Shown: positions 6,124-61,308 of the stretch, in pieces
How the letters are laid out: each line of letters begins with the position of its first letter
Position numbering within the stretch: the first letter of the stretch is position 1
Assembly: GCA_028699255.1 (NCBI GenBank)
Contig: JAQVUX010000006.1
Coordinates: forward strand, 89,928-153,927
Length of the DNA stretch: 64,000 nt
Origin: Candidatus Omnitrophota bacterium
GTDB taxonomy: Bacteria > Omnitrophota > Gorgyraeia > 2-01-FULL-45-10
Direction: 5' to 3'
Position numbers and translations under genes: made by a program
Notes under the pieces: generated by a model
Seen by the model: the letters and a program-made list of their open reading frames with translations, nothing else
Told to the model about the DNA's origin: nothing
Database searches by the model: none

Positions 6124-6139
6124 GGTGAAGGAGAATAAT

Positions 6140-8153: not shown

Positions 8154-8235
8154 CACGCGAAAGCACTTCGATTTGCATTTTTTAGAATCGTAGTGTATCT
8201 TTATATATGTTGTATAGCATAAGAAAGGGGGCAGT

Positions 8236-8487
8236 ATGAGGTATTTTATGGTTTTGATAGCGGTTGTGGCTCTTTTGGCGTTTGCCGTGCCGGCCAGCGC
8301 GGAGACTTGTTTTAATGAAATGAGTAAGTGCATCCAGACTTTTGGTAAAGGATGCTGTGGCACATGTGGCGCGACTAAGACAGAATGCGCCAAGACATGC
8401 CCGAAGAGCGTAGTAGCGGTAGACGCTTTGGGTAATGACGTGTCGCTCGTTACCGATAATTCAGGGAAATCACAGTTAGGAATATAA
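8236..8487 (+). CDS. Small secreted cysteine-rich protein (8 Cys in ~35 aa), hypothetical
   Basis: Signal peptide then 'ETCFNEMSKCIQTFGKGCCGTCGATKTECAKTCPKS'. Confidence 0.5.
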   Translation: MRYFMVLIAVVALLAFAVPASAETCFNEMSKCIQTFGKGCCGTCGATKTECAKTCPKSVVAVDALGNDVSLVTDNSGKSQLGI

Positions 8488-8513
8488 ACCATTCCTAATA
8501 AAGGTTAGTTATG

Positions 8514-8543
8514 ATGTAGGGCACCTTTAAAGGTGCCCTACAT
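8514..8543 (+). terminator. 30-bp perfect palindrome ATGTAGGGCACCTTT|AAAGGTGCCCTACAT downstream of Cys-rich gene (no T-tract)
   Basis: Seen directly; second small hairpin TTAGGAAT..ATTCCTAA at 8475..8497 overlaps stop codon. Confidence 0.45.
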
Positions 8544-8585
8544 TGTTATTGGATAATTTGATATAAGAGTATATAATAACAAAAT

Positions 8586-42600: not shown

Positions 42601-45600
42601 ATATTAGGAAAGCGCGCCGAGCAAGGCGCCATAGAAACACTTACAAACTTATGGAATTTTAAGGGCATCTATAGGGTTGATGATAATGTGTCGGAAGCTA
42701 TAAGAATACGGGAAATATTATCTGTCTATCTGGAGTATATGGGCGAACCGAGTGACGCGGAGATTGCCGCAAGCCCTGAGCTAAGAAATGAATTCGCCGA
42801 GTGGGATAGGATAATCGCGCAATCCAACGATCCATATGTCAGGCAAAAAGAAATGTCGGCTAAAGACGAAGCGCGTCAGGAAATGCGCGATTCTATATTG
42901 CTCGGAAATGCTATGTACTGGTGGGAAAGGGCGAGGAAAGAAAGACATGATTTTTCCGTAGCGGAATTCAGAGAATTAATGAAGCAGGTGAAAGCGGACA
43001 GCGTGGATGCCATACAGATACTAAAATTAATACATGGCAAAGACTATCAGCCGGATTTCCACAGAGCGGCCGATATGGGCTGGCTGATATCGTATTCACT
43101 CCCGCGGCTTTTAGAATCGAAGGAATCGGCTGATAAAACAGTTCCTGCGCAAGGGCCGGTTTCCCCGCGAGGCATGAGCCGCATAGAGGCTTTTAACCTG
43201 CTTCTGGACGCGGATAAAGACGGTAATTTAAGAGATTTGACCGAGAAGTATCTGGCCAAAACCGGATCGTTGGTTAATTATGGCAAGCTTACCCCAACCG
43301 CCCTTCTTGACCCGCAGGTATGGGGGAAGATACAATTTTTAGCTTCTAATTATCTTGAAGGCAAAGAAGCGCCCTCTGCCGTAAAAAATTTCGCTGGTAT
43401 GGTCAAGGCCAGAATAAGGATGATCGACGCCGCCGAACGGCTGGGACAGACAAAAGATAAAGTCATATCAGTATACGAAGGTACGCGGGAAGAAGCGTTA
43501 AAGGCGTATATAAACAGTCAGGAGTCGGCGCACCGTAGGGTAATGGGCGCCAGGCCGGTAAGCGACGCCATGCGTAGGGCATGGGAGAAACGTTTTGCTT
43601 CCCAGTGGGACCTGTACCATACTATGAAGAAGGCCTATATTGAAACAAAAGCGTCCGAATATAAGAAAGACGCCGGTGTTTCTGATGTGCCAAAAGAGCT
43701 ATTCAGCATATGGGGCAGTGAATTCCCGGGTATGTATTGGGAAGGCAATCTTTCTTCCGAAGCTGAAAATTTTGAAAAGAAGGCAACGGAAAAACAGGTT
43801 GAAAAAGAAATTATTGTAAGGCCTCCTACGGAAGAAATAAAGAGTATTAAAACACCCGTTGCAAAGCCTGCCGCCCAGCCGGCATCAGAAAAAGGCGCGC
43901 AAACCATACCGGCCATTCCGTCGTTTGCCCGGATGCTTTTTAACGCGTTAATAGGCCAGCATCCCGCAAATATAGACTCTCTTGCGCCTAAAGATTATCC
44001 TGTTTGGGGCATATCTACGGCAGATAATCCTGAAAACCCGGAGCAGTATGAGGAATTAGGCGCGCCCATCGGCTCTAAGGACAGAGCTAATAAAGGTTAT
44101 CCGGATAAACAGATTATAACCCCATATGCCGCAGTCTTGGCACTTGACTGTGCTCCAAAGGAGGCGGTAAGGAATATAACCCAGATATTAAACAGGTACC
44201 CGCAGGCTATAGGTAAATATGGCCCGTATGATTCCATAGATCTTAAAAGCGGGGCGGTATCTAATACATATGTAGCTGATAACAAAGGCATGGAGTTTAT
44301 AACAATAGCGAATTATTTCAGCGGCGGAGCAGTACAAAAATATTTTTCCGGGAGTAGCATTGTTAAGCAGGCTCTGCCGCTTCTTAATGAGAATTTTAGC
44401 CGGATGAAGATGCCGGATGGATTATCGTTAGAAAAAAACATATCAAAAGAAGAGAAGGAAACCCTGCTTAAACTCGAAAAAGCGGCATGGGATTATTTTG
44501 CGGATAATTCCAACGCATCGACGAACTGGCTCCCGCCGAATAGGATAAATTCCGGAGAGTCAAAATCATACACTTCGATTACCAATATAGGGCTGTACCT
44601 CGCCGGCATAGTAGCCGCTGAAAAAAGAGGTTACATTACATCCGACGAGGCCAAAGACAGATTATCAAAAGCACTCGATGCTATAAGCAAATTGGATACA
44701 TGGAATGGGCTTTTTAGGAATTATTATGATTTGGGGACGCTCAAATCTTCTACGAAAAGCGATAGGCTGATATCACCTGTCGACAACGGATGGCTCGCCG
44801 CAGGCCTTATAGTTGCTGGTGAGGCGCATCCCGAATTAAAGGACAAAGCGCATGGCGTAGTGACCGGTATGCAATTCGGCCATCTTTATGATAAAAATGC
44901 CGGTAACCTTGTAAATAATTACGACGAAAATAGCGGCCCCGCATCTTCGCATTATGGGCTTATCTATACCGAAATAAGGCCTACCCTTATCATTGCCATA
45001 GGACTGGGAAAATTAAACAAAGATCCTTCGGTGCCGATAGTCCCCGAAACCGCATGGCATAGCACCGCAAGAACGCTCCCCGCCGATTGGGACTGGCAGG
45101 CTCAGCGGCCGGACGACTCATATTATTCGTATAAAGTAAACGTGAATGGAAAAGAAGAGACGGTTTGTTTCGTCCCGTCGTGGGGCGGCAGTATGTTTGA
45201 AGGATTGATGCCCAATCTATTTATCGATAATAAGATTTATTCGCCGAAAGGGTATGCGATACAGGATGCCGTGTATGTATTCCTGCATAAATATTTCGCG
45301 ACAGGCGCTTCCGCGCAAAAGGTTGAAACCCCGGTAACTCAACCGGTAAAAGTTGCTCCCGCGGAAAAGCCTGCCGTCGCCGTACCGAGTCCCGAGGCTA
45401 AAATACTGCCGATTGTTACCCGCGAACAAGCCGTATCTCAGGAATCATTAGTTTCAGGTGTGCCGCAAACGCCAGAGTCACCACTGGTGATACCAGGTTA
45501 TATAAGTGATGCCATAGCGGGGGCGAAACCCGGGAATACAGCCGATGAAGGTGTCGAAGCCGTTCTTAAGCTAAGAGAGCTTCTAAGCATATTGGCGGAC

Positions 45601-48600
45601 GAAAAAGTATTCTCGATAGCCGATGAAGGCGGCGCTTTTGATAATGCGCTGATAAGTTACGAGAAAAAGAGATCCGCGGAATTGAATAAACTGTTTAAAG
45701 GCAATGACAAATTAGCGAAGAGCGTTTTGCGGGAAGAATTGAAGAACTTTGCCGTTCAATACCGGGGAGGTGTAATAAATTCTACCGCCAATACCTTCTT
45801 CTTCGATCTCGGCATATCGGATCCCGGGGTTGTGGAGAAGATCATCCGAGCGGATAAATATATAGATATGGTGGGTAAAAGCAATAAGCACCCGCTTAGC
45901 GCTCCTGAGGTAGGGAACTGGAGGAAAGAGTTCCTCGAGAGGGTATATCTTACAGAGGCCGAGAGAAAGCTGAATGAGGATCCGAAACGTGAGCTTCTGA
46001 TAAAACGTATGGGCGAAAGAAAAGACCTTGATGATTGGCGCGGCAGTAAATTATCCGGGAAAGCCGGTGAAGCGTATCGGTACATTTCGGATCTTTTCAG
46101 GTTAATTGCTTATCTTGAGACAGCGGCCATAGATGTTTCCGAAGATATAAAGAAGGAGGAGAAGGTGCAAGAAGGCCGTCCTGTCGATGATTATGCCGCG
46201 TTAAATACGCTTTTAGAGGCATATAGGGCGACAGGAAAAGCGATCCCGGCTATTGAGGTATTAGCGGCTAAGACACAGAGTGCCGATTTCGCATTCTGGA
46301 GAAGCGCGAGGGATCATATAGAAGAGCTCGAACAACTAAAAAACACACTTCTTACAGAACAGGATTTCGCGAAACGGCCGGATGAAATAACCCGTATTTT
46401 AGAGAAAGCCAAAGATCTTCGCTCTTATGCCAAAAAAGATCCGGTTCGCGGTCTTTTAATACAACAATTTGTCGATTTAGCCGATCCCGAAAACCCCGCA
46501 AAAGCGATAACCGCTGATGATAAGAAAACGTATGTCAATGAATCGCCTTCTAATATGGCATTTGCCAAAGTTAACGCATTACTCCTCGGTATGGATCAGG
46601 TGATCAAGATGATGAAAAAAAACCGTGCGGAAGAATTAAAAACAATGAAGGAATTTTCGGATACAATGTTCGAAGAGCGCATTCGCATAGCGGAAGAGTT
46701 GAGAGCGCATGAGTTAAAAGCCTCGGAGTTCAATGAAGACTGGCAAAAAAATAAGACAGGGTGGGCAGGCAGGGTCTGGTCCAGGATGTTTGGGAGTAGC
46801 GCCGAATCCCGGGCCATAGAGGCTGAGAGAAAACGGTCTGACGATTTTAGGACAGCCCTGTATGATTATTCCGTATTGTACAACTGTTATTTATCGAGGC
46901 AGAAGACGCCGTTTGAAACAGCGATCGCCGAAGCGCAGTTCCTATATGAAAAACTTACAAAAGAACGGACGAGGGAAAATATAGCCGACCTTGAATGGTA
47001 CGAAGCCGCGAGGGCGGCCAAGAAAGAATTATTTTATAAAACATACCTGCAGATGGTTTCGAAATCTGTCGGTCGTGAGTTAAAAGGCGGAGATTTGAGT
47101 TTTATGTTCAAAGAGATAACGCTCGATCCTTATATGCGCAGGCAAAAAGATAATTATAAGCAAAAACTTGGCAACGATTATCCGGAGAACGTCAAAGAGC
47201 AGATGGGCGAGCGTTTCGTATCGGACAAGATAGCCGAATATGTAAAGTTGGAAGCGCTTGTGATGGAGCTTGAGGCAAATCTCAGAAAAAACCAGGAGAT
47301 ACCTGAATATGCCCCGCAGTTCAGCCGCGGTATTACTACGGCGACGTATATGGAATATGATGAAAAGAATATGAGTTATGATGAAAAAGCCCGGAATATT
47401 CGCGAGTGGTTTAAGGATGCCTCGCTGTGCCAGCGATTTGCCAAAAAATACCTTGGGTACTATTTCGGTTACTATACGCTCCAACATGTGGTCAGGACGA
47501 TGCGTGAAGATGACAGGGCGACCCCTGTTTTATTTGAGAAACCAGACCGCGCCGAAGCGAATTTTAAATCCAAATATTCTACCGATCTCGCATATAAAAA
47601 TTATGGTCCGCGGCTTAATAATATGCATGACACCGGATACGCTCTCAGGGTTACTTTCGACGCGGTAGATGATAACAGGTATGATCTCTTATTGAAGGAG
47701 CTGGACAGAATAAACGGCGGGAAAGCGTCTGGTGAAATCAGGATGGTTCGTGATGAAGCAGTTGAACGTCTTGGTAGTTTCCACAATGAGTTGGCTAAAT
47801 TGCTCCTGCGTTTTTACAATAGCAAACCGCGCGAATCGGTTGAACGGGATGTCACGGAGCTTGAGAAAGAAGCTCTTGCGGGAATAATCGAAAATCTTAC
47901 GATAAATCTTGAAACCCGTAATAAAGAATATGCAGATGCGAATAAAAAGATTTGGGAGAACGCGGCGGAGAGACAGGAGCTTATTAAGGAAGTGCGCCGT
48001 AATAGGAAGCGCGGATACGATAGTCTTGAGAGGTTTGACCGCACAAATACCGTGGGTAGGCTATCCATAGAGATGAATGATGCGTTGAAGGTGGCCAATC
48101 GGGTGATGCCGCCGGACGCTAAAATATCGATAAATCAGGAACGGATCGATTATTTCGTGACACAGTGCATGGAGAGCGGTATGACGCCTATGGAACAGGT
48201 GGATATCGCTTTTATAAAACCGCAAGCTTTACGAAAAATATACGTTGAGATATTTGGTAAAGAGCCGACCCCGCATCAATGGGAGGACATAAGGTTCTAT
48301 GTTGAATCAAAAATGGACCTTGATGGCTGGACTGAAGATAATGTCAGGGTATGCATAGTATATGGGGAGTATATCAGGGAAATATATAAGACCCTACCGG
48401 GCGCGCGTCAACCGAATGACGGCGAAACGAAGATGCTGGTCGAGCATATGCTAAAGAACGGAATCCTTCCTATTAATACTAATGTCCGCGAGATGAACAT
48501 TGAGCCGAATCGTATCACAGTCAAGGCGCTTATCGAAAAACGGCTTGCACCGGAGCGTGTTATAAAACTGACCGCAGATATATTGACTACGCTGGAACGC

Positions 48601-51600
48601 AAAGAATATGGAAAGCTTAGCGGCGAAGAAGAGTTTATCAATCAGGTTTTCTATCTTATGGGTTATGTACTGGACACAAATATAGTGGAGAAGCCCGAGG
48701 ATGCAAAACCTTCGTATAATAAGGAAGCTTTGGTAAAGAATATCGGCGATAGGCTTAAAGGTCTAAATATAGAAGGATCCGGCTATACCACCCAGGAGCT
48801 TGCCGGTAAGATAGTTGATAATATTATAAATAGAGGACTTCAAGCGGATAATTTTCCTGCGCTCGTCGATCGCCTTTTACAGATGAAAACGCGTATAAAT
48901 AAAGTGGACGATATTATCAGAGATAAAAAAACGAAGGCTAAGAGTGAGGGGAGAGAATTCGAGTTTAACGAAGAACAGCGCGCCGATATAGTTCCGATAA
49001 GCGAAAACGACCTGAACATCCTTGCGGTTCTGGATGATAGCCGGCAGAATAGAAGTGACGGTATAGGCATAGCGGAGATAGCCGGATTCAAGCGCGATTC
49101 TTCTGCCTGGAAACGACTGAAGGAGGACGTTAAAAAACCTATAGATGCGTTATGGGGCGGTTTGCTTAATAGTGAAGCCGAATCCCGCTATAACGCGATC
49201 CGCGGAAAAATAATAGACGCGGCATTCGCAAGATATAAAGGTAAGTACACCAAAGAGTATCTGGGTAGTATGGTCGACAGGCTGATCAGGGCCGGATTAT
49301 ATACCCCGGAAGGCGAATTGACCGAAGTAGCAAAAATAGCCGGACTGCAAAAGGCAGTCCTTTCTATGCGGGGCGTAGAACCATCCAGTGATACCGAAGA
49401 GCTTAAGAGGCAATTAGACAGGATCAGGGATAACGCGCCGGAAGATATTCTCGAAAAGGCCGAACTGGCGGCATGGCAAAAAACAGCTCAGCTTTTCGGT
49501 GTTTCCGATATTGCCGCTACCAAGGTTGGCATAAAAGAGCAGTTAGCGGCCCGTCTTTTAACGCTTGAGAAAAATATTAAAGAAGCGGCGGAGCTTGCGG
49601 GTTTACGCGCTCTCGCGACCGAAGAATTTGGTATAAATAATCCTGGCCGGAATATCATAGAAGCTACAGATCAGATTCAGCGTTCCGCCCGAGAAAATAA
49701 AGTGCCGTTCGTAAATGAATCGGAATATCTGGTGGACCTGCGCGCCAAGGCCGGCGCTCTTGGCGTAACGACCAGGGCCGGAGCTTCCAATGAAAAAGAA
49801 TTACTGAATAAGGCTATAGCCGAAGCGGAAGAAAAACTACCCCGGACATTAAAATATTATGCCGATAACGCCTTCCTGCGCTATTTCGCCGCGGAGATCG
49901 GGGTAAGCGCAAAATCCGGCGATGAAACATCTGTAAGAAAAGAAGCCGCCGACGAAGCCCGCGCAAAAGCTGAGGTAATGTTGAATGAGGCAAAATTAGA
50001 AGGACTTAAAACGGAAGCGCGGCTACTCGGGATCACGTCAGCCGATTCTGATGCGGAAGGACTTCAGGCGCAGATCGATGCCGAGGCAAGATCGATCAAA
50101 ACAAAGGAATCCGAGGTATTGGATAAAGTCAAGACGGGACTTTCTGTTGACAGTACGGCCATGTTTAAATCGATGGCGAAAATAGGTATTATTAGCTCAG
50201 TTGTTACGCTGTCACTTTCGCTTTTAGGGTACGTTATCAGAAATCTTCGTAAGTGGCTGAATCTGTTACGCGCGAAACCTCAGGCGGCAGAACAGCCGCA
50301 AGAGGCCGCGCGTGCGGCTGTTCCAGCTCCGCAGGCTGTACCGGTTTCGCCGGGCGCGCCAATCGAGCCGCAAATCGCGCCGACCGCACCTGTTCCTGCG
50401 ACCATAGTTGACAACACAAAAAATACGGAGCGCAAATTCTGGTCAAAAGGACTCTGGGACATGTCTTTCATGATGATGAAGCTGAGCGTACAAATCTCTG
50501 TTGCGTATTCACTGCTCTTCAAAGGGCCGGTGTCGCCTTTTGCAGGGTGGGCTTTCAATTTCGGCGCCCTCGGAACATTTTTAAAGTCAGTATGGGCATA
50601 TTTCTTTACTTCAGGGATAATTGATTTTGACAGTTTCGGCGTGTTTTTGCAGTCAGCAAGCCACGATTTACAAGCATTGGCTCCATTTGCCGCGGTAGGC
50701 CTGGCAATAGGAGTGGTAACTCTTATAATGAATCAGGTTGTAAAATACGGACGGCAATCAGTCGGTATAAGGATTTTAAAAGAAAAACCGGGATTTGCGG
50801 GCACTCTGCACTTAATCGCTAAGTCCGCATTTCTTGCCCCCGTGCTTGCGTTTGCCAGCTACTTTTTCATATCAAAAGGCAATCTAATCGCGACCTCCGG
50901 CGCCGGAAACGCTATATGGTTATTCAGCTCTCCGGTTATCGTGTTAGGGGCTATTTTCGCCATAATCTATGTAAGTAATAAACTTTTGATAAAGGCTTTC
51001 CCGCGCTCTTCGACACTTAGGTCTATTTCGGTACTCGGGATCACTGTGGCAGGTATAGCAACGATCGCTATGTTTCTGCCGGGTGGATTGTTCTCGAATT
51101 TTGCCAATGTATTCACCTTCGGCGTATATGCTTATATAATAGGTAAGTTCAGTTTCAGGACGTTCGAATTTATTTCGTCAGCCTTACAGATACCCGCCCG
51201 TTTCGTATGGGATCGGGAAGGCGAAAAAGCCTGGAGCAAAGAGGCATTATGGGACGGGTGGAAACATTTTAAAGGATCGTTGAACAATTTTGTGTTCGAA
51301 GGTGTTCTATTCTCCACCACGATGGTTTATGTTTTTGTTACGCAGAACATGTTCACAAGTGTAGGATGGCTCGTGGCCCTTGGCGCGGCATTGTATTACT
51401 ACTCCAATAATAGCGCCGCGTCTCTTACGGCCGGGCAGGTATTTTATATAGGCAAGAATTTTGTAAAGACGACGTCATTTGCTCTATCTATATATTTCTT
51501 CGCGCAGATAGGTATCGCTCTGAGCGGAGGCGCGGCAGTCGCGAGCATATCGCAAAATCTGGGCTATATCGTTCTTATTACAGTGATCAATATATTTGTC

Positions 51601-54600
51601 GATACTCTGCGCAGAAGTATTTTTGGTAAAGATTACATAGGCACGCCAAAAGAAGCGGTAATAAGCAAAACCGGTAAGGGTGATGCGGAAAACACCGTTG
51701 TCCAGGTACAGAACACCCGCAATGAATACGGCGAAGCGGTTATTTCCTCGCTCGGCGTCCTTTTCAGAAGTTTTGCGAATAATCGTTCGGCGGTTGGATC
51801 AGCCATATTTACAAGTGATACGGCGCAAGGCCCGCTTAAGACGATGGAGCTTATACTTGCCAGTATGGAGCAGTTACGACATGGCGAAAGTAGCGCTTTT
51901 ATAGCCGGCAGAAACAACCTGCCCGGGGTGACCGGTCCCGCCCATGGCAAAAAATGGGGCGGGTATCAGCAGTTCTTCGTCGCCCTTTATTTCGGTTTTA
52001 TGCATCATATAGCATATACAGGCAGAGAAAATGACCAGAGGGACCAGATATTTGTGTATGAAAAAGGCGGTAAAAAGTTCTTCGGAGAACACCTGAAGAA
52101 TTCCAGAAGGACCTACGGGGATGATAGCGTAAGAGATTCTAACGATAATATAAGGGAAGTGCTTATCGAAGAAGAGGATTGTGATTTCTATATAAAATTA
52201 AAAGAGGGAGATAATAAGTTTGTTTATGAAGAGATAGTCGTCGTGGATAATAATAACCCTTCGCAAAACCTTACCGGCGTAGTATTTGATACGCGACATT
52301 ATCTGATCGATTGCGAAAATAAAGATAAGATATTGCGTGTAGTCGCGGACGGAATATTTGAGTTTAAAAAAGATGTGGAAAACTACAATGGTAAACCCGG
52401 CGCATGGGTGTTGGTAGCGAAAACCGATCAGATAAAATTAACAGAAGATGGTTATCTGATAGATCCGGAAAATGCGGTCAAAGATATAAAAGATTTTTAC
52501 GGGAATATTTTGCCGAAACGAGTAAGACCGGCTATAGTTCAGCAGGTCACAGGTAAAGACATAAATGGCAACAGGCGCGTTCTGCGGCTTGAAAAGACCG
52601 GAGATATTATCGATCCGATAACCGGAAAGAAGGCTGGAACCATATTCGATAAGTCGGCTCAAAAAATGTATTACGGTGTGGACGCAAATTATAATCGCAC
52701 AAATCTGCTCATGACATCAAAGTTATTCAGGAAAGGCGAGTGGGAATACGTTGACGACACAACTAAGGATGCTGTAAGGGATACAACAACAGGCATAATA
52801 TATAAAAAAGGGCCATATACCAATCTTGCTATGGATAAGAACACCGGCGCTATGTTTTTGAAATTTGCAGGCAAGACGCTTGATTTTGGCGACGGCAGGT
52901 TGATACCTCTGGAAAGAGTGAGGGCGTTTAGTCCGGAATCCGTTAATCCGCTTGTCGATAATATTATAAAACGCCGGGGCGAATTCCTGATCCATGGTGA
53001 TAATCTTGTAACCGATAATAACGGGCAACCGGTAAAGGTTAAGGATTTCTGGGGAGAAGATGTGCTGATATCGCTGGATAATGCTTATGTTGACAGTCAT
53101 GGTAATCTTATTCATTCCAATGTAACGGAATTACTCGCGGTAAAAGAAGCGTGGGAGATAGATCCTTATACCGGTGATGCGGTGGTTAAGGGGAGCGGGT
53201 TCAGGGGAGACGGCCATATCCTGGCGGCGAAAAATAAATGGGTTGCGGATAAAGACGGGAAATTATATGCCAGAGGTATTACTCAAAGCGAGGCCGATTA
53301 TGCCGCAAAGACAGGCGTGTATGGACTTTTGGATAAACTTAATCTGGGCCTGACAGGGGTTGAGAATAATTGGTATATAGAGGATCCGGAACATCGCCTG
53401 CCGCTTGCGGGATATCCTGTCCAGAGAGTAAGGAACGGCTGGGTTGTTAACGAGGGCAAAGGATTTTCACTCGACGCATCAGGTAATGTAGTGTACACAC
53501 CAAATTGGCTTAGGGTCGGATGGCTGTCGGACGAGACTTTCGGCGAATTACCCGCCTTAACAATACCTGCAAGTAACGTAAAATCGATATCGAAGGACAT
53601 TACAAAGATAAATTACGCGAAAGACAACCGCCTAGAACATATAGAAATTCTCGCAGATTTTGGCAGTTATTACAAGGATGATAAAGGTAGTTATTATAAA
53701 CGCCGCAAAGTTGGATATTTAGATGAAATAAGCGGTGAGCCGGTATGGTATGGTGAAGCTCCCCCCGGAACGGTTCGTTTAGATTTAAAAGGCGGCTTAT
53801 GGGTGGACACGCCCGATTCATTGGATTTGACCGCATGGGCCGGCCGCGGTTATGAAATAGGTATAGCGCAGAATGGCAACCTGGTGGCTATTAAAGCCCT
53901 CGCCGATAAGGCAGAATACGAGATCGACCGCGTTACGGGCAATGCGCGTATCACCTCCGGCGCGAACAAGGGACAGCAATACAGGGTCGGCACATTCTTA
54001 AGAGTTGGGGAATACGGTTCTTACAGATTTATCCTTTCGCTGGAACCCCGCAAGACACAGCTTCCTTACGATATTTATCCGGACATTCAAGGCATAGGCG
54101 CCGATGGACTTATTTCCTCCGACCATCTTATGGCAAATCCAACGCTTATGGAGTATCTCGTCCAGGCGCCTCAAAGGCCGCGGGCTATAGACCAGACGGA
54201 TAGTGAAAACGAAATAATGGATAATGATACCGCGGAAAAATTGAGTGTAGCGGTCAGAAATCGGGAAGGCTTCGATCCGGATAAACTTTATTACACTATA
54301 TTCGGCATTCTGCAAAGAGAGCTGTACATGACGAATGCCGGTGAGTCGGAATACGCTTATCTGGGCGGCACGGCGCATGATATGCTTAACTATATAGCCG
54401 CGATGAATAAGTGGAGCTTTGAAGAATCCTCCGCATACGGGAAAATGTTCGATGTTCTCGGTATATACGCCCTGAACGTTATATTTACGGAAGCCATACC
54501 GCCGTTCGCGCGCTGTCACGATCACTGGGAGGCGTTGAAGGCATATGCTCTGCTTCTGCCCGGTTTCTGGCGCGATAAAGAGAGGTTTGTCGGAGACGAA

Positions 54601-57600
54601 TACTTGTCCCCGAACATAGTAAAGATGGCTCAGGTACAAGGATGGATGCCCGGAGACATAACGCTCTTTTATTACGAGATATCGGCATTGAAGGTTATAT
54701 TGGACGCGCTCAGCGGTTTGTGGCCGAAAGCAAGCCGCTCCATAGATGATCTGCATGAGAAACATCCGTTCTCGGCCGGTTCAGGTAAGGCGATGTCGAT
54801 CATATTGTACGGCGCTTTTGGAACGCTCGCCTTCGCTGTATGGCTTATGGCCCTCGGCGTAGTCAGTGTATTGGTGCCGGGCTTGCGCGAAGCCCAGGAC
54901 GCATGGCGCTCGAACCTGCTTTTTGGTATCGTTATGTTAGTCATGATAGAAATATCGAAAGCTGTGATATCCGGCATAAAGAGATTATTTGAACAGGAGC
55001 GCAATGATTATATCGTCCGGCTGTTTGGCAAAGATATAGTTATAAGCAAGGCGCTTGTAAATCTTATCTTCACGGCTTTCTTTGTAGCACTGACGATCGA
55101 TGTCGGATATTTAGGGTTGAGTCCGCTGATTTCCAAGACGATAGCGCCTAATATAGCGAGCGGGAAGAGCGTCGTAGGCGATGCGGCCGCATATTTTGCC
55201 ATAGCATTCGGCATTACAAATGCATTGATTTATTTTTGGTCCATGTCCGTCACGGCTTTAAAAAATAACAAAGCCATCCGTCGCGCCCCGATTTTATATC
55301 AACCCGGGAAAGATAAAGCATATAGCTGGGCCAAGTCCGTAACGCGGTATTTGATAATTCCGGCGATTTTGGCCTCCGCTATGTTTGCCATAGGACATTT
55401 TTTCCCTGACCATTCTCCACTGGCGCTAATTCGGGACCAATTTGTACATCTGAAATACGTACCTTCCGCGAGATTCGTACCGGCTCTCGTAAATATGATT
55501 TTCTATAATATAGTACCTTATATCTTGCCGTTCTACCTTATAATGGGAAACCTGTCATCCATAGCCGCGAGATATCTGGAAAAGAAATTCGGATGGCAGT
55601 TACTCTATGTGAATACAGATATCTATGATGTGTCTTACAAAGCGCAATGGGAAACATTAAATTCTACAAACCTGCTAATGGTATGGCTTTTCTACCAACC
55701 GATGGCATTCTTTAAATCACTCTTTGTGGTAGGCGTAAAAAGACTGGAGCCGGCCTGGGTAACAGCGGCAAAATTAGCTCTCGAATATTCCGGAGGATAT
55801 AAGCTCTGGGAGTCGTGGACCGGCAAAGATTTCAAAGTAAACAAACAGATGCTGTTTGCGGTCATACCGGCTGTGATATTTGCTTGTTTTACATGGAAGA
55901 CCGATTCATGGTTCGGCTATACGATGTATGGTATCTGGCTGGCGTATATAATCTGGATATCCGGTACGCAAAAGACGCCCACAGCATTAATATTGCCGGT
56001 AGTCTTTTCATTGACACTGCTTTTGGCGACCGCTGTCATGGGACTCGATTCCTCGATAGTCTTAATGGGATTCCCAATCTATATATGGTCGTTCCTCTTC
56101 GCCCCGTATAAAAACTGGACGACCGGCATGTTCGGAGGGTCGCCTCATTATAGCACTAACTCAATGGTGGAAGCCACGCGCCAGATCAGGGTGTGGGAGC
56201 AGAGATACCTGTTAGGCATGGGTAAGCCGGTTGAAGATAGCGAGGCCGTAAAGAAAATAATCGGATTAGATAAGTTCTTCAGGGATGGCAAGAACGAGCC
56301 TACAATGCTTAACCAGAGAGATAAGTTACGACTATTGCTGTTCCATCTTACAAATATAAACCTTAATATAAATCCGATATTTGAGCAGTATATAGATAAG
56401 GCGCTTGAAGCCCGCCGGCCGGAGGAAGAGGCGCGGTTGAGAACCAAAGGATTTATAGTAGAATCCCGCAGATGGCCGAGATTCCAGGAGTTCGATAAAT
56501 CGCGCGAGAGGGCTTTTGCGATATTGGATGAGTTGCGTGGCAACGCGGCTCTAAGAACGCAGTACGGCAATGAAAAACTGGAACAGCTTATTAATGAAGA
56601 AAAGAACCGCTGGATATTGCGTGACGCTGTAAATAAGGCGATCATCCGCCGCGCGCATGAATTGGCCGGGATAAAACGTTTACGGGAAAAAGATTGGGAT
56701 ACGCTTTCCGTCCTGACGCGTTTGGAAATATTGCTGGAATTATTGAAATCAAAAGATATTGATGTGCGATCGGCCGCGGATAACGCGCTGACAACGCTGG
56801 GCGCCGCGGATAATAGAAATGTTGCCGAAACCACAGCGCTTATGAATGCGCTCGCCGCAATAATAAATCGCATGGGGCCCAGGGCTTACAATATTACGGA
56901 TTGGGAAAAACTTCGCCGCTCCGAGCAATCCGGTTTTATTAATTCTGTGCTTAAGTATTTTTCAATTACGGGAGCACGCGCCAAATATATTCGTACTTTA
57001 TCAAAACCATTCCGAAAGTCCACCGCTCCGGCGACGTCGCCGGTAGTTATGAAGGGCGGCGTAGAGGGCGGCAGATATGAGATCGTCACGGCAGATATAA
57101 TAGACGGCGCTATACAGAACTATAATGGTGTCGGATATGAAGATACAGATACAAAATTAAGGCAGGATCTGAATAATGCCATAAAGCGGATTTTTACGCT
57201 TGATGGATTTTCTGAAGAAGCAAAAACTAAAATAGCGGCAAAGATTATGAGCCTTTTAGGCGATCAAGCCTCGATAAACGCATTATTACAAAATAAGAAA
57301 CTTAGGGTGGTCGAAGGTAACGATCGTCTTATGCATTTTACGGAAAGCGCCGATACGATAACGCTGGATATAGACGCGCTACTTCATAATAACGACCTGT
57401 TATTCATGGAATTGGTCCACGAACTCTTGCACGCTAAACTCGCGGCTACCCAGACAAGGGCGGGTCCCGCGGCGGATCTCGCTACGCGTATTCAGGAAGA
57501 GATAGAAGTTACCACACAGGAAGTAGAGTTATTCCTCGCGTTCCCCAAAGATGCTCAAGACAGGATCCTCGCGGCATTGGCCGCCGACAACGACCTCGAC

Positions 57601-60600
57601 GACAGAAATTTCAGGCAGATACTTGTAAAGGCGCAGGCGGAAGGCCTTAGCACCCGGATAAAAACCGACATCGAAAGATATGTCGGAACTTTAGGTAGCG
57701 TCGAATACGCGTTGCCGCCGCAAGCTACATGGTCGCTCGAGAAGAATGCGCCGGAATTGGTCGGCAAAACGATAGTTACGCTTTCGATGGAAGGCAATAT
57801 CCCGGAATTTGAAGGATACGCCGCGCAGAATGCCAATACAAAAGGCGGTCTTGGCGCGTACTTTGGCGATAAGTTAGAAGGATTGTCGAAAGTAGGAGCC
57901 ACGGCTTACGGGATAACGCCCAGATATGCTATGGCCGGTGATCAGAATGTTGAGGCGGATTATCGGGAACTTGTTCGTAAAGGTATTTTAAAAAGAGTAC
58001 AGGGCCGCGACGGTAAGCCGTTAACATTGCGCGTTTCGGCGTGGGATGAATGGGATAAGGATAATGCCGATAACAATCCTGTTTATGATGTAGAGGTTTA
58101 TGTCGTAAATCGCGGCGGAACTCCTTTGTATGTACTCTCAATGCCAATGGTCTTTGACAGTTTATATACAGATAATCGCCTGCACCGCTATACGCAAGAG
58201 ATCGTTTTCGGGAAAGCGGCCTTCCAGTTAATGGAAAAACTCGGGCTACCTCCGGATATTTTACATTTGAACGAAGCGCATACCGTAGTAGCCGCGGCTC
58301 TTATTAAGGCGGATATAGCGAAAGCCAAATGGGCGCGGGAAAACCTTGGCTCAAGCCGCAAATCTGTTTTTGAAAACAAAAATATGAAAGTTGTGCTGAC
58401 GAACCATACGCTTGTTTCCGCCGGTATGGAGATGCATCAGCCGGAGCACATGTACAATGCGAATATAGACCGCATGCGGGCCATTCTCGAAATACCCGCA
58501 GAAGTCGCGGGCCAATATGGCAGTATGTTCCTCAAGAGGCATATACTCGATAGCGAAGATCACCCTATCAGCCCAGCATCGCTTAGCGCGATAGGCGTGC
58601 GATTGAATGAAAAGGGTGAACCTGCCGACGCGGATAGCTGGAAGCGTTTTAATGCGGCAGGCTGTAAGTACAGGATGATAGTCGATTTCTGCTACGCGGC
58701 TTTTAAACTGGCAGATGAGATGAACGCTGTAAGCGAAGAGCATGCTTTAGCGACCACAAACTTATTCAAAGCCCTTTACGGGAATGAGTTTAATAAAAAA
58801 GTTACAGGGATATTAAATGGTTCCGGTAATACATGGAAAAACCGGGAGCTTTTAAATGCTGAAACCGGTAATAATGTTCCGGACTCCAACGCGTTATATG
58901 ATATTCACGAGAAGGGCAAAAAAGAGGCTTACGCAGAAATAGAAGCGCGAACCGGAGTGAAGCTTAATCCGGATAAGCCGACGGTATGGCTCGTAAGACG
59001 GCTTGTGGAATATAAGAGCCAGTATCCGATACTCAGGTTTATAGTTCCTATAATCTGTTCCGGCAGGGGCGAGGTCTTTACCAGGGAAAAATTAATGAGG
59101 ATATGGATGGAAGATATCCCGGCTATGAGCGGCGCGGATGCCAATAGGCGCTATAACCGGGATATGCACGCTAAAGCTAACCGAATACTCGATATGCTAT
59201 TCGCCGGCAAGACCGAAATACGCGGATTGGATATGCAGATGGTGATTGCCGGCCCGGAGTATGAACATGGTTGGGTCAAGCGCTTCAAGTCATGGCATGC
59301 GAAATATGACGGCAACTTTGTTTACGTCCCGAATTCCGACGCAAAATTACTAAAGATGCAGGCGATAGGCTCTGATGTATGTCTTACTATACCGCGTCCG
59401 TTGGAAGAAGCGTGCGGTACGTCCGACCAAAGATCGGGTATGAACGGAGGCGTTACAGTTTCGATTAACGGCGCCGGCCCTGCCGAATGGGTTACGGAAT
59501 TTAATGAAGCTACTCTTGAGGGCAACGGATTCCTGATAGGTTCATATACAAAGATGACGCCGCAAGGCCTCGAGGCCGATATTGATGGATTCTACGCAGA
59601 TGCCCCGGCCGATGTATTTAATAAGCTCACAATTTGTTCGCGGCTATTTTACGAAAGAGGCACAAATCCCGCGTGGAAGCAATTGATGCATAATTCGTAC
59701 ACGGCCGCGAATTACGGCGCTCTGAGTAAGAAGGCGGTTACGGCCAAGGCGATGGAGGAAAGATACGCGGTGCGCGTATATGCGCCCGCGCTTAAAGCCG
59801 CCGCGGAAGTTTCGCAACAGCAGGTTGTTGCGGCATCCGCTATAAGCATACTTGCCGTAGCGGCCTCTACACCGCTTGGGTCATTTGTGAATCAGGTAAT
59901 AAATAATTCGTTGGATGCCATCGGAATGCCACACTGGCTGGCGGGTGTTATTATTATAGCGGCATTAGGTATAGCCGCGGTGATAAAAATAAAGAAGGCG
60001 GTTATCTCTTCGAAAATCACCGTCGGAATACCGCCCTCGGCAATCACTACACGCAAGGCGGCTATCGAAACTATCCTCAGCTCGGCAGGCGGTAAATACG
60101 AAGTGGTAACCGTCGATAATATCGCCTCATTCGCCGATGAGTCCGCCGGTAGAGGCACAGCGAGGATATTCATAGATAATGATATCTCCGAGGAAGCCAT
60201 AAAAGAGCACATCCTATTAGCGAAGCTCGCCACAAACTATTCCGGCGTATTGGCTACAGCCAATATAGACAGGGCATTGGTAAAAGAGATAACTGACCTC
60301 ATTAAAGATATCCTCGGCGATGATGCCATGAGCTTAAACGCCGCGGAAATATTCTCAAGGGTAAGCGAAGCCGTCAAAGATTCGGTTAAAAAAGAGAAGA
60401 TAGCCCGGTTAGCGGGGCTCGTAGTAACCCAGAGCCAGAATCTTACGTCATTCGCGAATAATCATTCCCCGAGATTCAATCCATCCGCGAGAAAAGAAGA
60501 CTCGGCCATCGCCACAGCCGCGACAGACACAATAGCCGCCAAGTCGCTTGAATTCGCCGATGATGTACGTCGTAACGCCGCGGAAGGCCGCAAAACATCG

Positions 60601-61235: not shown

Positions 61236-61259
61236 TATGTAAACGTTAAAAAAGTTATA

Positions 61260-61281
61260 TTTTCCACCCCGGGGTGGAAAA
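61260..61281. promoter_or_regulatory. 22-bp perfect palindrome TTTTCCACCCC|GGGGTGGAAAA in leader of second giant gene (same core as 16326..16351)
   Basis: Seen directly; lies ~25 nt downstream of -10 and 28 nt upstream of TTG start. Confidence 0.5.
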
Positions 61282-61308
61282 ACAGAAGACTTGGCATAAG
61301 GAGGCAGT

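What the first reader, a model, noticed from the sequence alone, without database searches (positions are those of the whole stretch)
50150..56110. Two polytopic TM blocks flanking a ~1,000-aa beta-rich Gly/Asp/Tyr/Asn-rich region
50150..51640 and 54780..56110 each encode roughly 8-12 hydrophobic helices, e.g. 'IGIISSVVTLSLSLLGYVI', 'FAAVGLAIGVVTLIMNQVV', 'MSIILYGAFGTLAFAVWLMALGVVSVLV', 'LILPVVFSLTLLLATAVMGL'. Between them, 51640..54750 is rich in G/D/N/Y/K with many short beta-like segments such as 'GDGRLIPLERV', 'YARGITQSEADYAAKTG', 'RLDLKGGLWVDTPDSLDL'. It reads like extracytoplasmic beta-sandwich or propeller modules. Together with the N-terminal anchor and the TM pairs near 37080 and 38100, the protein appears to cross the membrane many times. 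Large soluble domains would then lie on both sides, an architecture reminiscent of secretion-system platform components or polysaccharide synthase/export machines rather than an adhesin.
Basis: inference. Interest (0 to 1): 0.55.

Follow-up and report, generated by a model that had tools for sequence, protein, structure and literature searches.

The report
Split glucan-synthase module in giant protein
The two membrane-spanning blocks and the beta-rich stretch between them form one unit: a very divergent membrane sugar-polymer synthase, related to bacterial beta-1,2-glucan synthases, whose catalytic domain is interrupted by a ~700-residue domain of unknown fold, inside a 9,145-residue protein of an uncultured Omnitrophota-type bacterium.

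Summary
Window 50150-56110 lies inside one 9,145-aa ORF (33640-61077). It contains two hydrophobic blocks (aa ~5512-5987 and ~7055-7495) flanking a TM-free, G/D/N/Y/K-rich, mostly beta segment.

The three parts are one module. The ~120 aa after block A and the ~200 aa before block B are the two halves of a GT-A glycosyltransferase domain of the membrane GT2/GT84 type. With the middle spliced out, the family profile aligns continuously to E. coli OpgH (hhalign 90.8%, P 1.2e-6; shuffled controls P >= 0.11). [quoted passage not shown]

The ~710-aa beta-rich piece is therefore an insertion in a cytoplasmic catalytic domain, not an extracytoplasmic module. There is no TM between the halves, and the family-wide positive-inside pattern agrees.

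The family is rare (18 representatives in 1.84 billion proteins), matches no Pfam model and occurs almost only in Omnitrophota. The same giant protein also carries a Cgs-cyclase-like domain (E 1e-32 to 8WY1) and an alpha-glucan-phosphorylase-like GT-B domain.

Structure prediction failed (pLDDT ~50). Activity, product and the insertion's role are inferred.

The parts
33640..61077 (+). Giant ORF (9,145 aa) that contains the finding
   Evidence: ORF list and translation. Collinear giant ORFs exist in other Omnitrophota MAGs: P0002, L007, L017, L021.
50173..51600 (+). TM block A (aa 5512-5987): 7 strong and about 12 candidate TM helices. The last few belong to the synthase module; the rest are extra TMs found in the giant forms.
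   Evidence: Hydropathy. Giant homologues align from about aa 5734-5892 onward. Stand-alone homologues have only 2-3 N-terminal TMs. A K/R-rich stretch follows the last TM.
51691..52044 (+). GT-A N-terminal half (aa 6018-6135): beta-alpha-beta-alpha-beta-alpha, with motifs 'FTSD' (D6060) and 'GKKWGGYQ' (aa 6103-6110)
   Evidence: Family alignment A2. AF2 secondary structure with pLDDT 56-78. Collinear but individually non-significant match to OpgH 235-337. It joins the C-half in one continuous alignment once the insertion is spliced out.
52045..54180 (+). Beta-rich insertion domain (aa 6136-6847, ~710 aa) of unknown fold; conserved core at aa 6470-6800 (nt 53047-54039)
   Evidence: Composition. 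AF2: 44 strands, at low confidence. The core is conserved family-wide with internal duplication. No match in PDB sequences or Pfam. No TM-like peak.
54181..54774 (+). GT-A C-terminal half (aa 6848-7045) with the catalytic motifs
   Evidence: Alignment A1 invariant columns. hhalign to OpgH: 88.6%, E 2.7e-6. PDB profile hit to the Cgs GT84 domain: E 4.3e-4.
54199..54207 (+). DxD-equivalent 'D-S-E' (D6854, E6856), preceded by a conserved Gln
   Evidence: Aligned to Cgs D624/D626 and OpgH D346/D348. The role of Cgs D624 is taken from PMC10901819.
54517..54522 (+). Invariant 'HD' (H6960, D6961): predicted catalytic base
   Evidence: Invariant in A1, A4 and A7. Aligned to the Cgs catalytic base D739 and OpgH D449.
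54640..54657 (+). 'GW..GD' (G7001-D7006), the equivalent of the Q/RxxRW motif. Trp is invariant; Arg is replaced by Gly in this protein.
   Evidence: Aligned to Cgs R773-W774..G777-D778 and OpgH R489-W490..G493-N494.
54802..56124 (+). TM block B (aa 7055-7495). Nine hydrophobic segments are conserved in the family, plus one hairpin (aa 7400-7443) specific to this protein. It ends in the conserved motif 'G.PI..WS...(A/G)P'.
   Evidence: Hydropathy. Family conservation and alternating K/R loops. The hhalign alignment extends into the first post-GT TMs of OpgH.
44041..45234 (+). Context, outside the finding: Cgs-cyclase / GH189 / GH144-like domain (aa ~3468-3865)
   Evidence: Pfam Glycoamylase + DUF3131. 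PDB: 8WY1 at E 1e-32, the Cgs CY domain at E 9e-20, and GH144 glucanases. 8WY1 is the TiCGS cyclization domain.
57670..59559 (+). Context, outside the finding: GT-B domain (aa ~8011-8640) resembling alpha-glucan phosphorylases and glycogen synthase
   Evidence: Pfam Glyco_transf_5. NCBIfam TIGR02094 at 6.7e-28, with GlgA models also hit. PDB alpha-glucan family phosphorylase 9L6I at E 2.6e-7.

Best explanation
Window 50150-56110 encodes one functional module: a membrane-embedded, processive-type GT2/GT84 glycosyltransferase of the BcsA/OpgH/Cgs class. Its closest known relatives are the two bacterial beta-1,2-glucan synthases, Cgs and OpgH.

The order of parts is:
1. N-terminal TM helices (block A).
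2. The first half of the GT-A catalytic domain, with nucleotide-binding Asp D6060.
3. A ~710-aa conserved beta-rich insertion of unknown fold.
4. The second half of the catalytic domain: D6854-x-E6856 as the DxD, D6961 as catalytic base, W7002 as the acceptor-binding Trp.
5. A C-terminal bundle of about 8 (+2) TM helices (block B).

Both catalytic halves and the insertion face the cytoplasm.

Inferred mechanism: the domain takes a cytoplasmic nucleotide sugar, most plausibly UDP-glucose, and elongates a glucan at the membrane face. The chain is then either threaded through block B, as proposed for OpgH and BcsA, or kept on the cytoplasmic side on a protein primer as in Cgs. Y6918 aligns with the Cgs primer tyrosine Y694. 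In the second case the chain could be processed by the cyclase/glucanase-like and phosphorylase-like domains of the same 9,145-aa protein.

The insertion sits just before the DxD strand, next to the active site. It is most likely a regulatory, oligomerisation or glucan-handling domain.

Shown: homology, motif conservation, module architecture, taxonomic restriction. Inferred: catalysis, donor sugar, linkage, topology, role of the insertion. I put beta-1,2-glucan as the product at about 0.4-0.5.
For: 1. An exhaustive HMMER search found only 18 relatives. Their best-conserved core is aa 6840-7160.
2. The family alignment has invariant Q, N, GK, Y, HD, EA, W and GD columns, as expected of an active site.
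3. hhalign of the C-half profile against E. coli OpgH gives 88.6%, E 2.7e-6, over OpgH 340-500. Against an OpgH family profile it gives 86.5% over 228 columns, reaching into the first TMs.
4. With the insertion spliced out, the N- and C-halves align to OpgH 238-500 as one continuous 247-column stretch (90.8%, P 1.2e-6). A reversed profile and 15 column-shuffled profiles give P 0.11-0.77.
5. The spliced profile's top hit in the whole PDB is Cgs (8RF9/8RF0, GT84 domain, residues 595-782), E 4.3e-4. Family residues align to D624 (UDP), D739 (catalytic base), W774 (RW) and Y694 (primer), as defined in PMC10901819.
6. AF2 gives a beta-alpha-beta-alpha-beta-alpha N-half at pLDDT 56-78.
7. There is no TM between the halves, and the K/R loop pattern alternates across the family.
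8. The same architecture exists as stand-alone 1,450-1,630-aa proteins and inside other giant ORFs of Omnitrophota MAGs.
9. The same protein has a Cgs-CY/GH189-like domain (8WY1 E 1e-32; Cgs CY E 9e-20). The CY-like region co-occurs with the module in two other giant proteins, in different orders: L005 and L010.
Against: - No Pfam or NCBIfam GT model matches this protein or any of 17 family members, even at E<=1.
- The N-half alone is not significant (hhalign P ~0.065, within the control range).
- hhalign probabilities are ~87-91%, not above 95%. The Cgs hit is E 4e-4 with one profile and only 0.26 with a shallower one.
- Both AF2 models are low confidence (pLDDT ~50). Foldseek on the first gave nothing, and the second could not be searched. 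So there is no fold-level confirmation.
- Catalytic motifs are partly degenerate. The RW Arg is Gly here. The DxD is D-S-E here and D-N-K in one subgroup. The first Asp is missing in 3 of 10 members.
- The beta-1,2 linkage is inferred only from the nearest relatives and the co-resident CY-like domain. A GH144-family neighbour was seen in one stand-alone locus (L013) and not in another (L004).
Confidence: 0.72

Rival explanations
1. It is a GT2/GT84-type membrane synthase module as described, but it makes a different product: another beta-glucan, a hetero- or amino-sugar polymer, or a lipid- or protein-linked glycan. The resemblance to OpgH and Cgs would then reflect only shared ancestry within the membrane-GT2 class.
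For: Identity to OpgH and Cgs is only ~15-20% over the aligned core. Linkage specificity cannot be read from these motifs. The co-resident GT-B domain resembles alpha-glucan enzymes, not the GH94 domain of Cgs. The GH144-family neighbour does not recur in stand-alone loci.
Against: The only significant matches are to the two known beta-1,2-glucan synthases. No cellulose, chitin or hyaluronan synthase appeared in the PDB profile searches. A Cgs-cyclase/GH189/GH144-like domain, a family known only from beta-1,2-glucan metabolism, sits in the same polypeptide and in two other giant family members.
Confidence: 0.3
2. The GT-like domain is a catalytically dead relic. The module would then serve as a membrane scaffold, anchor or sensor within the giant protein, with the beta-rich insertion as the functional (binding) part.
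For: The Arg of the RW motif is Gly in this protein. The DxD is D-S-E here and D-N-K in one subgroup. The first nucleotide-binding Asp is absent in 3 of 10 members. A 450-710-aa insertion in a catalytic domain is unusual.
Against: The predicted catalytic base (HD), GK, the Trp and the following GD are invariant at ~25-30% overall identity, which argues for selection on an active site. Several members keep 'RW' (P0002, P0009, P0017). D-x-E is a conservative DxD variant.
Confidence: 0.12
3. One reading: the beta-rich region is an extracytoplasmic beta-sandwich or propeller module held between two membrane anchors, part of a secretion platform or surface structure.
For: Beta-rich, G/D/N/Y-rich composition typical of surface repeats. 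Published work on giant Omnitrophota proteins predicts many domains to be extracellular, though the authors call those predictions unreliable. Parts of this giant protein are probably outside the cell.
Against: GT catalytic motifs flank the region on both sides with no TM between them. The positive-inside pattern places this side in the cytoplasm. No secretion-system or adhesin family hit was found.
Confidence: 0.05
4. The giant ORF, or this part of it, is an assembly artefact that fuses unrelated genes.
For: The window contains near-identical long repeats: 33982-36267 matches 61715-64000, and 36225-36999 matches 37263-38031. An independent Logan contig breaks at the start of the gene.
Against: The frame is open for 27.4 kb. 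The repeats lie in the 5' region, far from the finding. Collinear architectures across aa ~3900-7600 occur in independent MAGs and in protein P0002.
Confidence: 0.03

Closest known systems
[quoted passage not shown]
   Same: Top PDB hit of the family profile. The DxD Asp, GK, catalytic-base HD, RW Trp and following GD are in register, and a Tyr aligns with the primer Tyr694. The GT domain is docked between TM helices. The same polypeptide carries a CY-like domain (E 9e-20 to Cgs CY) and a phosphorylase-like domain.
   Different: - The GT domain is split by a 450-710-aa insertion that Cgs lacks.
- There are many more TM helices: at least 8 after the GT domain and 7-12 before it, against 6 in total in Cgs.
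- The domain order is CY-like, then GT, then phosphorylase-like, rather than GT, CY, GP.
- The phosphorylase-like domain is GT-B (GT35/GT5-like), not GH94.
- The RW Arg is lost.
- Similarity is marginal (E 4e-4).
- In the CY-like domain, the conserved His-His of CGS cyclases is replaced by Asp-Asn.
OpgH/MdoH, osmoregulated periplasmic glucan glucosyltransferase (GT2; Pfam PF13632)
   Same: Best profile-profile match: 90.8%, P 1.2e-6, continuous over OpgH 238-500 after splicing. D285, D346/D348, D449 and W490 are matched, and the alignment runs into the first post-GT TMs. The architecture is shared: N-terminal TMs, cytoplasmic GT, C-terminal TMs.
   Different: No family member reaches PF13632 or PF00535. 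OpgH has 'WGHN' where this family and Cgs have 'YGKM/TGKG'. OpgH has no insertion. No OpgG/OpgD partner was seen.
Cellulose synthases BcsA and plant CesA (GT2). Plant CesA carries the P-CR insertion between the first Asp and the DxD (from my own knowledge, not tested here).
   Same: Same enzyme class and motif set: D, DxD, (T)ED-type base, QxxRW. Plant CesA shows that a GT2 catalytic domain can tolerate an inserted domain at the same topological position, before the DxD strand.
   Different: No detectable sequence match in the PDB profile searches. P-CR is ~125 aa and helical. This insertion is 450-710 aa and beta-rich. No PilZ or c-di-GMP module was found.
'Archaeovorin'-type giant membrane proteins of Omnitrophota (bioRxiv 10.1101/2023.11.21.568195; 10.64898/2026.06.07.730766)
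   Same: Same phylum by homologue distribution. Very long, many TM helices, with a GT5/starch-synthase-like domain and sugar-metabolism content.
   Different: At 9,145 aa this protein is far below the >30,000-aa class. No SecA-DEAD, HEAT or peptidase hits were found. Term searches of the two papers turned up no split GT2/GT84-like synthase module, OpgH or Cgs. One of them excluded TM regions from structure prediction.

Membership tests
Membrane-embedded GT2/GT84 processive glycosyltransferases (BcsA / OpgH / Cgs class) | Statistically supported sequence similarity of the catalytic domain to bona fide members | tested here: met
   hhalign to OpgH: 88.6-90.8%, P 1.2e-6 to 4.6e-6; controls P >= 0.11. 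PDB profile hit to Cgs GT84: E 4.3e-4. This is moderate support, not overwhelming.
Membrane-embedded GT2/GT84 processive glycosyltransferases (BcsA / OpgH / Cgs class) | DxD motif at the end of a beta-strand (metal and nucleotide binding) | tested here: met
   '(I/V)xQ(T)D-x-(D/E)' is aligned to Cgs D624-A-D626 and OpgH D346-A-D348. The first Asp is nearly invariant. This protein has D6854-S-E6856, and one subgroup has D-N-K.
Membrane-embedded GT2/GT84 processive glycosyltransferases (BcsA / OpgH / Cgs class) | Catalytic-base Asp (TED in BcsA, SHD in OpgH and Cgs) | tested here: met
   Invariant H-D (H6960-D6961) is aligned to Cgs D739 and OpgH D449.
Membrane-embedded GT2/GT84 processive glycosyltransferases (BcsA / OpgH / Cgs class) | Q/RxxRW acceptor-binding motif | tested here: inconclusive
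   Trp is invariant (W7002) and the following G-D matches Cgs 'RWARGD'. The Arg is Gly in this protein and in most members, and is kept in P0002, P0009 and P0017.
Membrane-embedded GT2/GT84 processive glycosyltransferases (BcsA / OpgH / Cgs class) | N-terminal Rossmann-like half with the first nucleotide-binding Asp | tested here: inconclusive
   AF2 gives beta-alpha-beta-alpha-beta-alpha at pLDDT 56-78. 'FTSD' D6060 aligns to OpgH D285, but the N-half alone scores P ~0.065, as controls do. The Asp is present in 7 of 10 members.
Membrane-embedded GT2/GT84 processive glycosyltransferases (BcsA / OpgH / Cgs class) | Cytoplasmic catalytic domain flanked by TM helices | tested here: met
   TM blocks lie on both sides. 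There is no TM between the halves. The family-wide positive-inside pattern agrees. No dedicated topology predictor was available.
Membrane-embedded GT2/GT84 processive glycosyltransferases (BcsA / OpgH / Cgs class) | GT-A fold shown at the structural level | tested here: inconclusive
   Two AF2 models at pLDDT ~50. Foldseek on model 1 found nothing at E<=0.001.
Membrane-embedded GT2/GT84 processive glycosyltransferases (BcsA / OpgH / Cgs class) | Glycosyl transfer from an NDP-sugar; processive polymer synthesis | not testable with these tools
   Requires biochemistry.
OpgH/MdoH family proper (Pfam PF13632 Glyco_trans_2_3 / NCBIfam MdoH) | Match to the curated family models | tested here: not met
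   No Pfam or NCBIfam GT2 hit for this protein or for 17 family members at E<=1. True OpgH proteins carry PF13632 + PF00535. It should not be filed as OpgH.
[quoted passage not shown] | GT84 domain + CY (GH189) domain + GH94 phosphorylase in one polypeptide, in that order, with 6 TMs | tested here: not met
   GT84-like and CY-like domains are present. However, there is no GH94 domain, a GT-B phosphorylase-like domain takes its place, the order differs and there are many more TMs. This is an analogous composition, not membership.
[quoted passage not shown] | CY-domain catalytic residues (TiCGS E1356 acid/base, E1442 nucleophile, H1536/H1537) | tested here: inconclusive
   The E1356 equivalent is kept ('TEIR') and so is E1400 ('MFEG'). 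The H1536/H1537 positions are D-N. The E1442 region is not aligned. The offset of 1003 between 8WY1 chain numbering and native numbering is my inference.
[quoted passage not shown] | Tyrosine-linked glucan primer (Y694 in the IF1-homology loop) | tested here: inconclusive
   Y6918 aligns with Y694. The family has Tyr or Phe at this column. Function is untestable here.
Archaeovorin-type giant Omnitrophota proteins | >30,000 aa, numerous TMs, divergent SecA-DEAD domain, GT5/GT1/methyltransferase/peptidase content | tested here: not met
   9,145 aa. The TMs and a GT5-like domain are present, but no SecA-DEAD, methyltransferase or peptidase Pfam hit was found. Definition taken.

The most novel reading that the evidence does not exclude
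Omnitrophota carry a previously unrecognised, lineage-specific glucan factory. It would be a Cgs-like trio (GT84-like synthase, GH189/GH144-like glucanotransferase, phosphorylase-like domain) rebuilt in a different order inside giant membrane proteins. Its synthase domain would have acquired a new 450-710-aa cytoplasmic beta-rich domain next to the active site, acting as a chain-length ruler, primer or carrier, or regulatory switch. That would mean at least some giant Omnitrophota proteins are biosynthetic machines for (cyclic) beta-1,2-glucan-type envelope or host-interaction polysaccharides, rather than degradative or predatory tools.
Probability: 0.3. Interest if true: 0.75.

Novelty: new variant of a known kind. 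Interest (0 to 1): 0.6.

Why it matters
Giant Omnitrophota proteins are among the largest known, and they are functionally almost blank. Published analyses list soluble domains, and one of them deliberately skipped the TM-rich parts.

This finding assigns a concrete, testable enzymatic identity to a 2,000-aa TM-rich stretch that no family library recognises. It is a membrane glucan-synthase module related to Cgs and OpgH. It also links that module to two other glucan-handling domains in the same polypeptide.

It defines a rare family (18 representatives among 1.84 billion proteins) that also exists as tractable stand-alone proteins of ~1,450 aa, suitable for expression.

It also offers an extreme example of a GT-A catalytic domain that tolerates a very large inserted domain just before the DxD strand. 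That is of interest for the evolution and engineering of glycosyltransferases, and for beta-1,2-glucan biology outside Proteobacteria.

Tried and rejected
1. A word-indexed homologue search with the whole 2,000-aa region found nothing. With profile A1 it found only 2 hits.
2. Single-sequence scans of genome and metagenome collections found nothing. Only the profile-based genome scan worked.
3. Pfam and NCBIfam on the region, in several splits and at E<=1, found nothing. Seventeen family members against Pfam gave no GT model.
4. A PDB sequence search with the middle region alone gave only chance hits.
5. AF2 on aa 5996-7195 and on aa 6835-7530 with family alignments both gave pLDDT ~50. Rows derived from loci were not accepted for a deeper alignment.
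6. Foldseek against PDB with model 1 gave no hit at E<=0.001.
7. The profile of the insertion core found nothing in PDB or Pfam.
8. Long internal repeats in the insertion, tested by windowed Smith-Waterman, were not above the null. The short [DN]xxGx-hydrophobic motif is only mildly enriched (7 observed against 3.2 +/- 1.7 in shuffles). Iterated HMMs did show an internal duplication of ~90 aa.
9. Block A and block B show no similarity to each other.
10. A phage or plasmid origin was considered and dropped. The context is chromosomal: an RND efflux operon, a P-type ATPase, ParA, a tRNA.
11. The conserved 2,300-2,500-aa partner ORF of the stand-alone homologues has no counterpart in this giant protein.
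12. A recurrent GH144-family neighbour in stand-alone loci was seen in L013 but not in L004 or L012.

Full report
**1. What is at the coordinates**

The finding (50150-56110) lies wholly inside one open reading frame, 33640..61077 on the + strand, 9,145 codons.

Kyte-Doolittle scans show two clusters of hydrophobic 19-mers:
- Block A, aa 5512-5987: 7 peaks >=1.6 and about 12 candidates >=1.0.
- Block B, aa 7055-7495: 7 strong peaks and about 11 candidates.
- No peaks in the 1,050 aa between them.

Fourteen of the protein's 20 strong peaks sit in these two blocks, about 10% of its length. A shuffled protein gives about 11.5 peaks spread at random. The region between the blocks is enriched in G/D/N/Y/K (0.34-0.38 against about 0.27).

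BLAST finds no similarity between block A and block B.

**2. Context**

The window looks like bacterial chromosome. It carries a P-type ATPase, ParA, a TPR protein, a ROK regulator, an OEP-HlyD-AcrB-AcrB efflux operon directly upstream of the giant gene, and one tRNA-Arg. I considered a phage or plasmid origin and dropped it.

An independent Logan assembly (SRR22315503) carries the efflux operon and breaks at the start of the giant gene.

**3. First searches were empty**

- The 2,000-aa region has no Pfam or NCBIfam hit even at E<=1.
- It has no word-indexed homologue among 5.8 billion clusters.
- It has no close relative in the genome or metagenome collections.
- It has no PDB sequence match.

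Elsewhere in the giant protein, Pfam finds Glycoamylase/DUF3131 (aa 3454-3749) and Glyco_transf_5 (aa ~8069-8227). NCBIfam finds alpha-glucan phosphorylase and GlgA models.

**4. A rare family**

An exhaustive HMMER search of aa 6301-7500 against 1.84 billion representatives found only 18 proteins at E<=1e-3, at about 30% identity. Several of them are themselves giant: 4,224, 6,091 and 7,817 aa.

The best-conserved core is aa ~6840-7160, which is the ~200 aa before block B plus its first helices. P0002 (6,091 aa) is collinear with our protein over aa 3896-5217 (E 1e-154) and 5880-7590.

A profile-based scan of one genome per GTDB species found 19 loci. Almost all are Candidatus Omnitrophota MAGs; a few are labelled uncultured Planctomycetia or uncultured bacterium.

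The family comes in two forms:
- Stand-alone proteins of ~1,450-1,630 aa: L004, L012, L013 (Ca. Saelkia tenebricola), L016.
- Modules inside ORFs of more than 4,000-6,900 aa: L005, L007, L009, L010, L017, L021.

L007, L017 and L021 are collinear with our protein from about aa 3900 to 7600, and L017 continues to the C-terminus. This argues against an assembly chimera in this part of the gene.

**5. Identity of the flanks**

The family alignment of the segment before block B (A1) has invariant or nearly invariant columns: Q.D ... Q ... N ... A ... GK ... Y ... P ... R.HD..EA ... W..GD.

- hhalign of A1 against E. coli OpgH, fetched from MG1655, gave 88.6% probability, E 2.7e-6, over OpgH 340-500.
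- A deeper alignment that includes block B (A4), against an OpgH family profile (A6), gave 86.5% and E 4.6e-6 over 228 columns, running into the first post-GT TM helices.

The ~150 aa right after block A are also conserved in the family, with motifs '..IY.P..', 'IYHSD' and 'KPG.Y..DYQ'. On their own they match OpgH only at P ~0.065. That is not significant, but the match lands on the collinear residues 235-337.

The decisive test was to splice the middle out of the family alignment. The joined N-half + C-half profile aligns to OpgH 238-500 as one continuous 247-column stretch (90.8%, P 1.2e-6). That is longer and better than the C-half alone. A reversed OpgH profile and 15 column-shuffled ones score P 0.11-0.77.

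The spliced alignment (A7) makes Cgs the top hit of the entire PDB at E 4.3e-4, over GT84 residues 595-782.

**6. Residue map**

The Cgs structure paper (PMC10901819) defines D527/D624 as UDP-coordinating, D739 as the catalytic base, R773 as the RW arginine and Y694 as the autoglucosylated primer. Using the 8RF0 numbering and the OpgH alignment:

| Giant protein | Cgs | OpgH | Note |
|---|---|---|---|
| D6060 | - | D285 | weak |
| D6854-S-E6856 | D624-A-D626 | D346-A-D348 | DxD |
| Y6918 | Y694 | - | primer Tyr |
| G6934-K6935 | G713-K714 | - | |
| H6960-D6961 | H738-D739 | H448-D449 | invariant in the family |
| G7001-W7002 | R773-W774 | R489-W490 | Trp invariant; Arg lost here, kept in some members |
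| G7005-D7006 | G777-D778 | G493-N494 | |

At the GK and GD positions the family agrees with Cgs rather than OpgH.

**7. Consequence for the beta-rich region**

It is an insertion (aa ~6136-6847, about 710 aa here and 446-611 aa in stand-alone homologues) within the GT-A domain. It lies between the 'KPG.Y' segment and the DxD strand.

- There is no TM-like peak between the two GT halves in this protein or in 6 of 7 stand-alone homologues.
- Across 17 family members, the loops of block B alternate in charge. Loops on the GT side carry 6.7, 2.7, 3.1 and 5.2 K+R. The intervening loops carry 0.8, 1.0 and 0.9.
- This is the positive-inside signature expected if the GT domain, and so the insertion, is cytoplasmic, as in all known membrane GT2 synthases (established knowledge).
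- The pattern fits about 8 true TM passes plus one interfacial helix in the family, with an extra hairpin (aa 7400-7443) unique to this protein. That keeps the C-terminal domains cytoplasmic.

The insertion itself is a real, conserved domain:
- Iterated local HMMs recover it in every family member (E down to 1e-90), with an internal duplication of ~90 aa.
- It has conserved motifs such as 'GKTGRE..YFI', 'GGY..NEKDGF' and 'G.YR.RK.LA'.
- It matches nothing in PDB sequences (E<=10) or Pfam (E<=1).
- AF2 models it as mostly beta, with 44 strands, at low confidence.

**8. What did not work**

Both AF2 jobs gave mean pLDDT ~50, because only about 14 usable homologues could be supplied. The search on the second was lost and the tool then became unavailable.

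So fold-level confirmation is missing. The assignment rests on profile comparisons, motif register, architecture and context.

**9. Wider context in the same protein**

Giant aa ~3468-3865 matches three things:
- the cyclization domain of T. italicus CGS (8WY1, GH189, PMC10834661) at E 1e-32;
- the CY domain of A. tumefaciens Cgs at E 9e-20;
- GH144 beta-1,2-glucanases more weakly.

A CY-like region also co-occurs with the split-GT module in L005 (before it) and L010 (after it).

Giant aa ~8011-8640 resembles alpha-glucan-family phosphorylases and glycogen synthases.

The polypeptide therefore holds counterparts of all three Cgs activities: polymerase, glucanotransferase/glucanase and phosphorylase. 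They come in a different order and with a non-homologous phosphorylase fold. In Ca. Saelkia, a strong PF10091+CBM9 protein lies 5 kb from the stand-alone homologue, but this does not recur in L004 or L012. What does recur next to stand-alone genes is a 2,300-2,500-aa upstream partner ORF with no known domain (L004, L013, L016) and a downstream rhomboid protease (confirmed in L004 and L013).

**10. Mechanism (inference)**

A cytoplasmic NDP-sugar, most plausibly UDP-Glc, binds the reconstituted GT-A domain through D6060 and D6854/E6856. D6961 deprotonates the acceptor hydroxyl, and W7002 stacks on the acceptor end.

The chain either enters a channel formed by block B (OpgH/BcsA-like) or stays cytoplasmic on a Tyr primer (Cgs-like, with Y6918 as the candidate). 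In the second case it could be trimmed or cyclised by the other domains.

The insertion sits next to the active-site entrance. It may regulate access, mediate oligomerisation (as the P-CR insertion does at the equivalent site of plant CesA; my own knowledge, not tested here) or handle the glucan.

I put the class assignment at about 0.7 and beta-1,2-glucan as the product at about 0.4-0.5.

**11. Comparison with the literature**

The giant-gene papers on Omnitrophota report many TM helices and GT5/GT1/sugar-metabolism domains. One of them explicitly excluded TM regions from structure prediction. Neither mentions OpgH- or Cgs-like synthases in the passages I searched.

This protein is much shorter than the 'Archaeovorins' and lacks their SecA-DEAD hallmark. 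I therefore rate the module as a new variant of a known kind of enzyme: a membrane GT2/GT84 glucan synthase, with a novel inserted domain and a novel genomic setting.

**12. Verdict**

- Interest is moderate to high (0.6). It gives a concrete, testable function to an unannotated TM-rich part of a giant Omnitrophota protein and shows an unusual split catalytic domain. The evidence is remote homology without structural or biochemical confirmation.

Noticed in passing
window 61250-64000 (+), compared with 33703-36267: A second ORF opens ~170 nt downstream of the giant gene and runs off the window end. Its DNA at 61715-64000 is 99.87% identical to 33982-36267, and 61349-61587 is 97.5% identical to 33703-33941. 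This looks like a tandem paralogue, possibly also giant, that shares the same ~880-aa N-terminal module (signal-anchor-like start). It could also be a repeat-induced assembly feature.
   Followed up: partly
window 36225-36999 vs 37263-38031 (giant aa ~861-1140 vs ~1207-1480): A 775-nt direct repeat, 97% identical, inside the giant ORF. Each copy includes a segment with weak, sub-threshold winged-helix-like hits (Arg repressor, Fur, HTH_Tnp), and a TM cluster follows each copy (aa 1151-1178; aa 1488-1563).
   Followed up: partly
window 44041-45234 (giant aa ~3468-3865): The Cgs-cyclase/GH189-like domain matches 8WY1 in permuted order. Residues 451-590 of 8WY1 align before residues 3-144, 301-369 and 389-407. 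This suggests a circular permutation of the (alpha/alpha)6 barrel, or a tandem pair with half of each copy undetectable. The conserved His-His of CGS cyclases (H1536/H1537) is Asp-Asn here. The acid/base Glu (E1356 equivalent) is kept. This may mean it is a glucanase rather than a cyclase.
   Followed up: partly
window 57670-59559 (giant aa ~8011-8640): A GT-B domain that hits both alpha-glucan-family phosphorylase (TIGR02094, 6.7e-28) and glycogen synthase models, all below their curated cut-offs. By eye it has 'GGLG..FGD' and 'PRPLEEACGTS' motifs, with Arg where I recall the PLP-binding Lys of phosphorylases. That recollection is from memory and was not tested.
   Followed up: no
L013 102-12064; L004 672-12400; L016 126-12064: Stand-alone split-GT genes are directly preceded by a conserved 2,276-2,534-aa ORF with no Pfam hit and no similarity to the giant protein. 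The two genes overlap in L013 and L016 and lie 14 nt apart in L004. In L004 and L013 a rhomboid protease gene follows on the opposite strand. This looks like a conserved two-gene unit of unknown partner function.
   Followed up: partly
window 20984-21456 vs 21866-22338: The 913-aa TPR_12/TPR_10 protein gene (19711-22452) contains a 473-nt internal direct repeat at 98% identity.
   Followed up: no
P0005 (121 aa, ENA contig of 560 nt): A short database protein is ~90% identical to giant aa 6925-6972 over 49 residues and then continues as an unrelated PF00291-annotated sequence. It is probably a chimeric or frameshifted short contig from a close relative of this organism.
   Followed up: no
window 34518-34548 and 62251-62281: A 16-nt unit GGGGACAGTCCCCTTC (itself a near-palindrome) is repeated 1.9 times at both sites. 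Both copies lie within the large duplicated 5' module, and by translation the repeat falls in the 'GTVPFGDSPLF' coding stretch.
   Followed up: no
window 55837-55968 (giant aa 7400-7443): Two hydrophobic segments in TM block B are present only in this protein and absent from the other 16 aligned family members. They form a lineage-specific extra TM hairpin that preserves the topology parity.
   Followed up: partly
L001 (Logan SRR22315503 contig, 11,424 nt): An independent short-read assembly holds the identical RND efflux operon and ends 93 nt into the giant gene. This is consistent with repeats at the 5' end of the giant gene breaking short-read assemblies.
   Followed up: no
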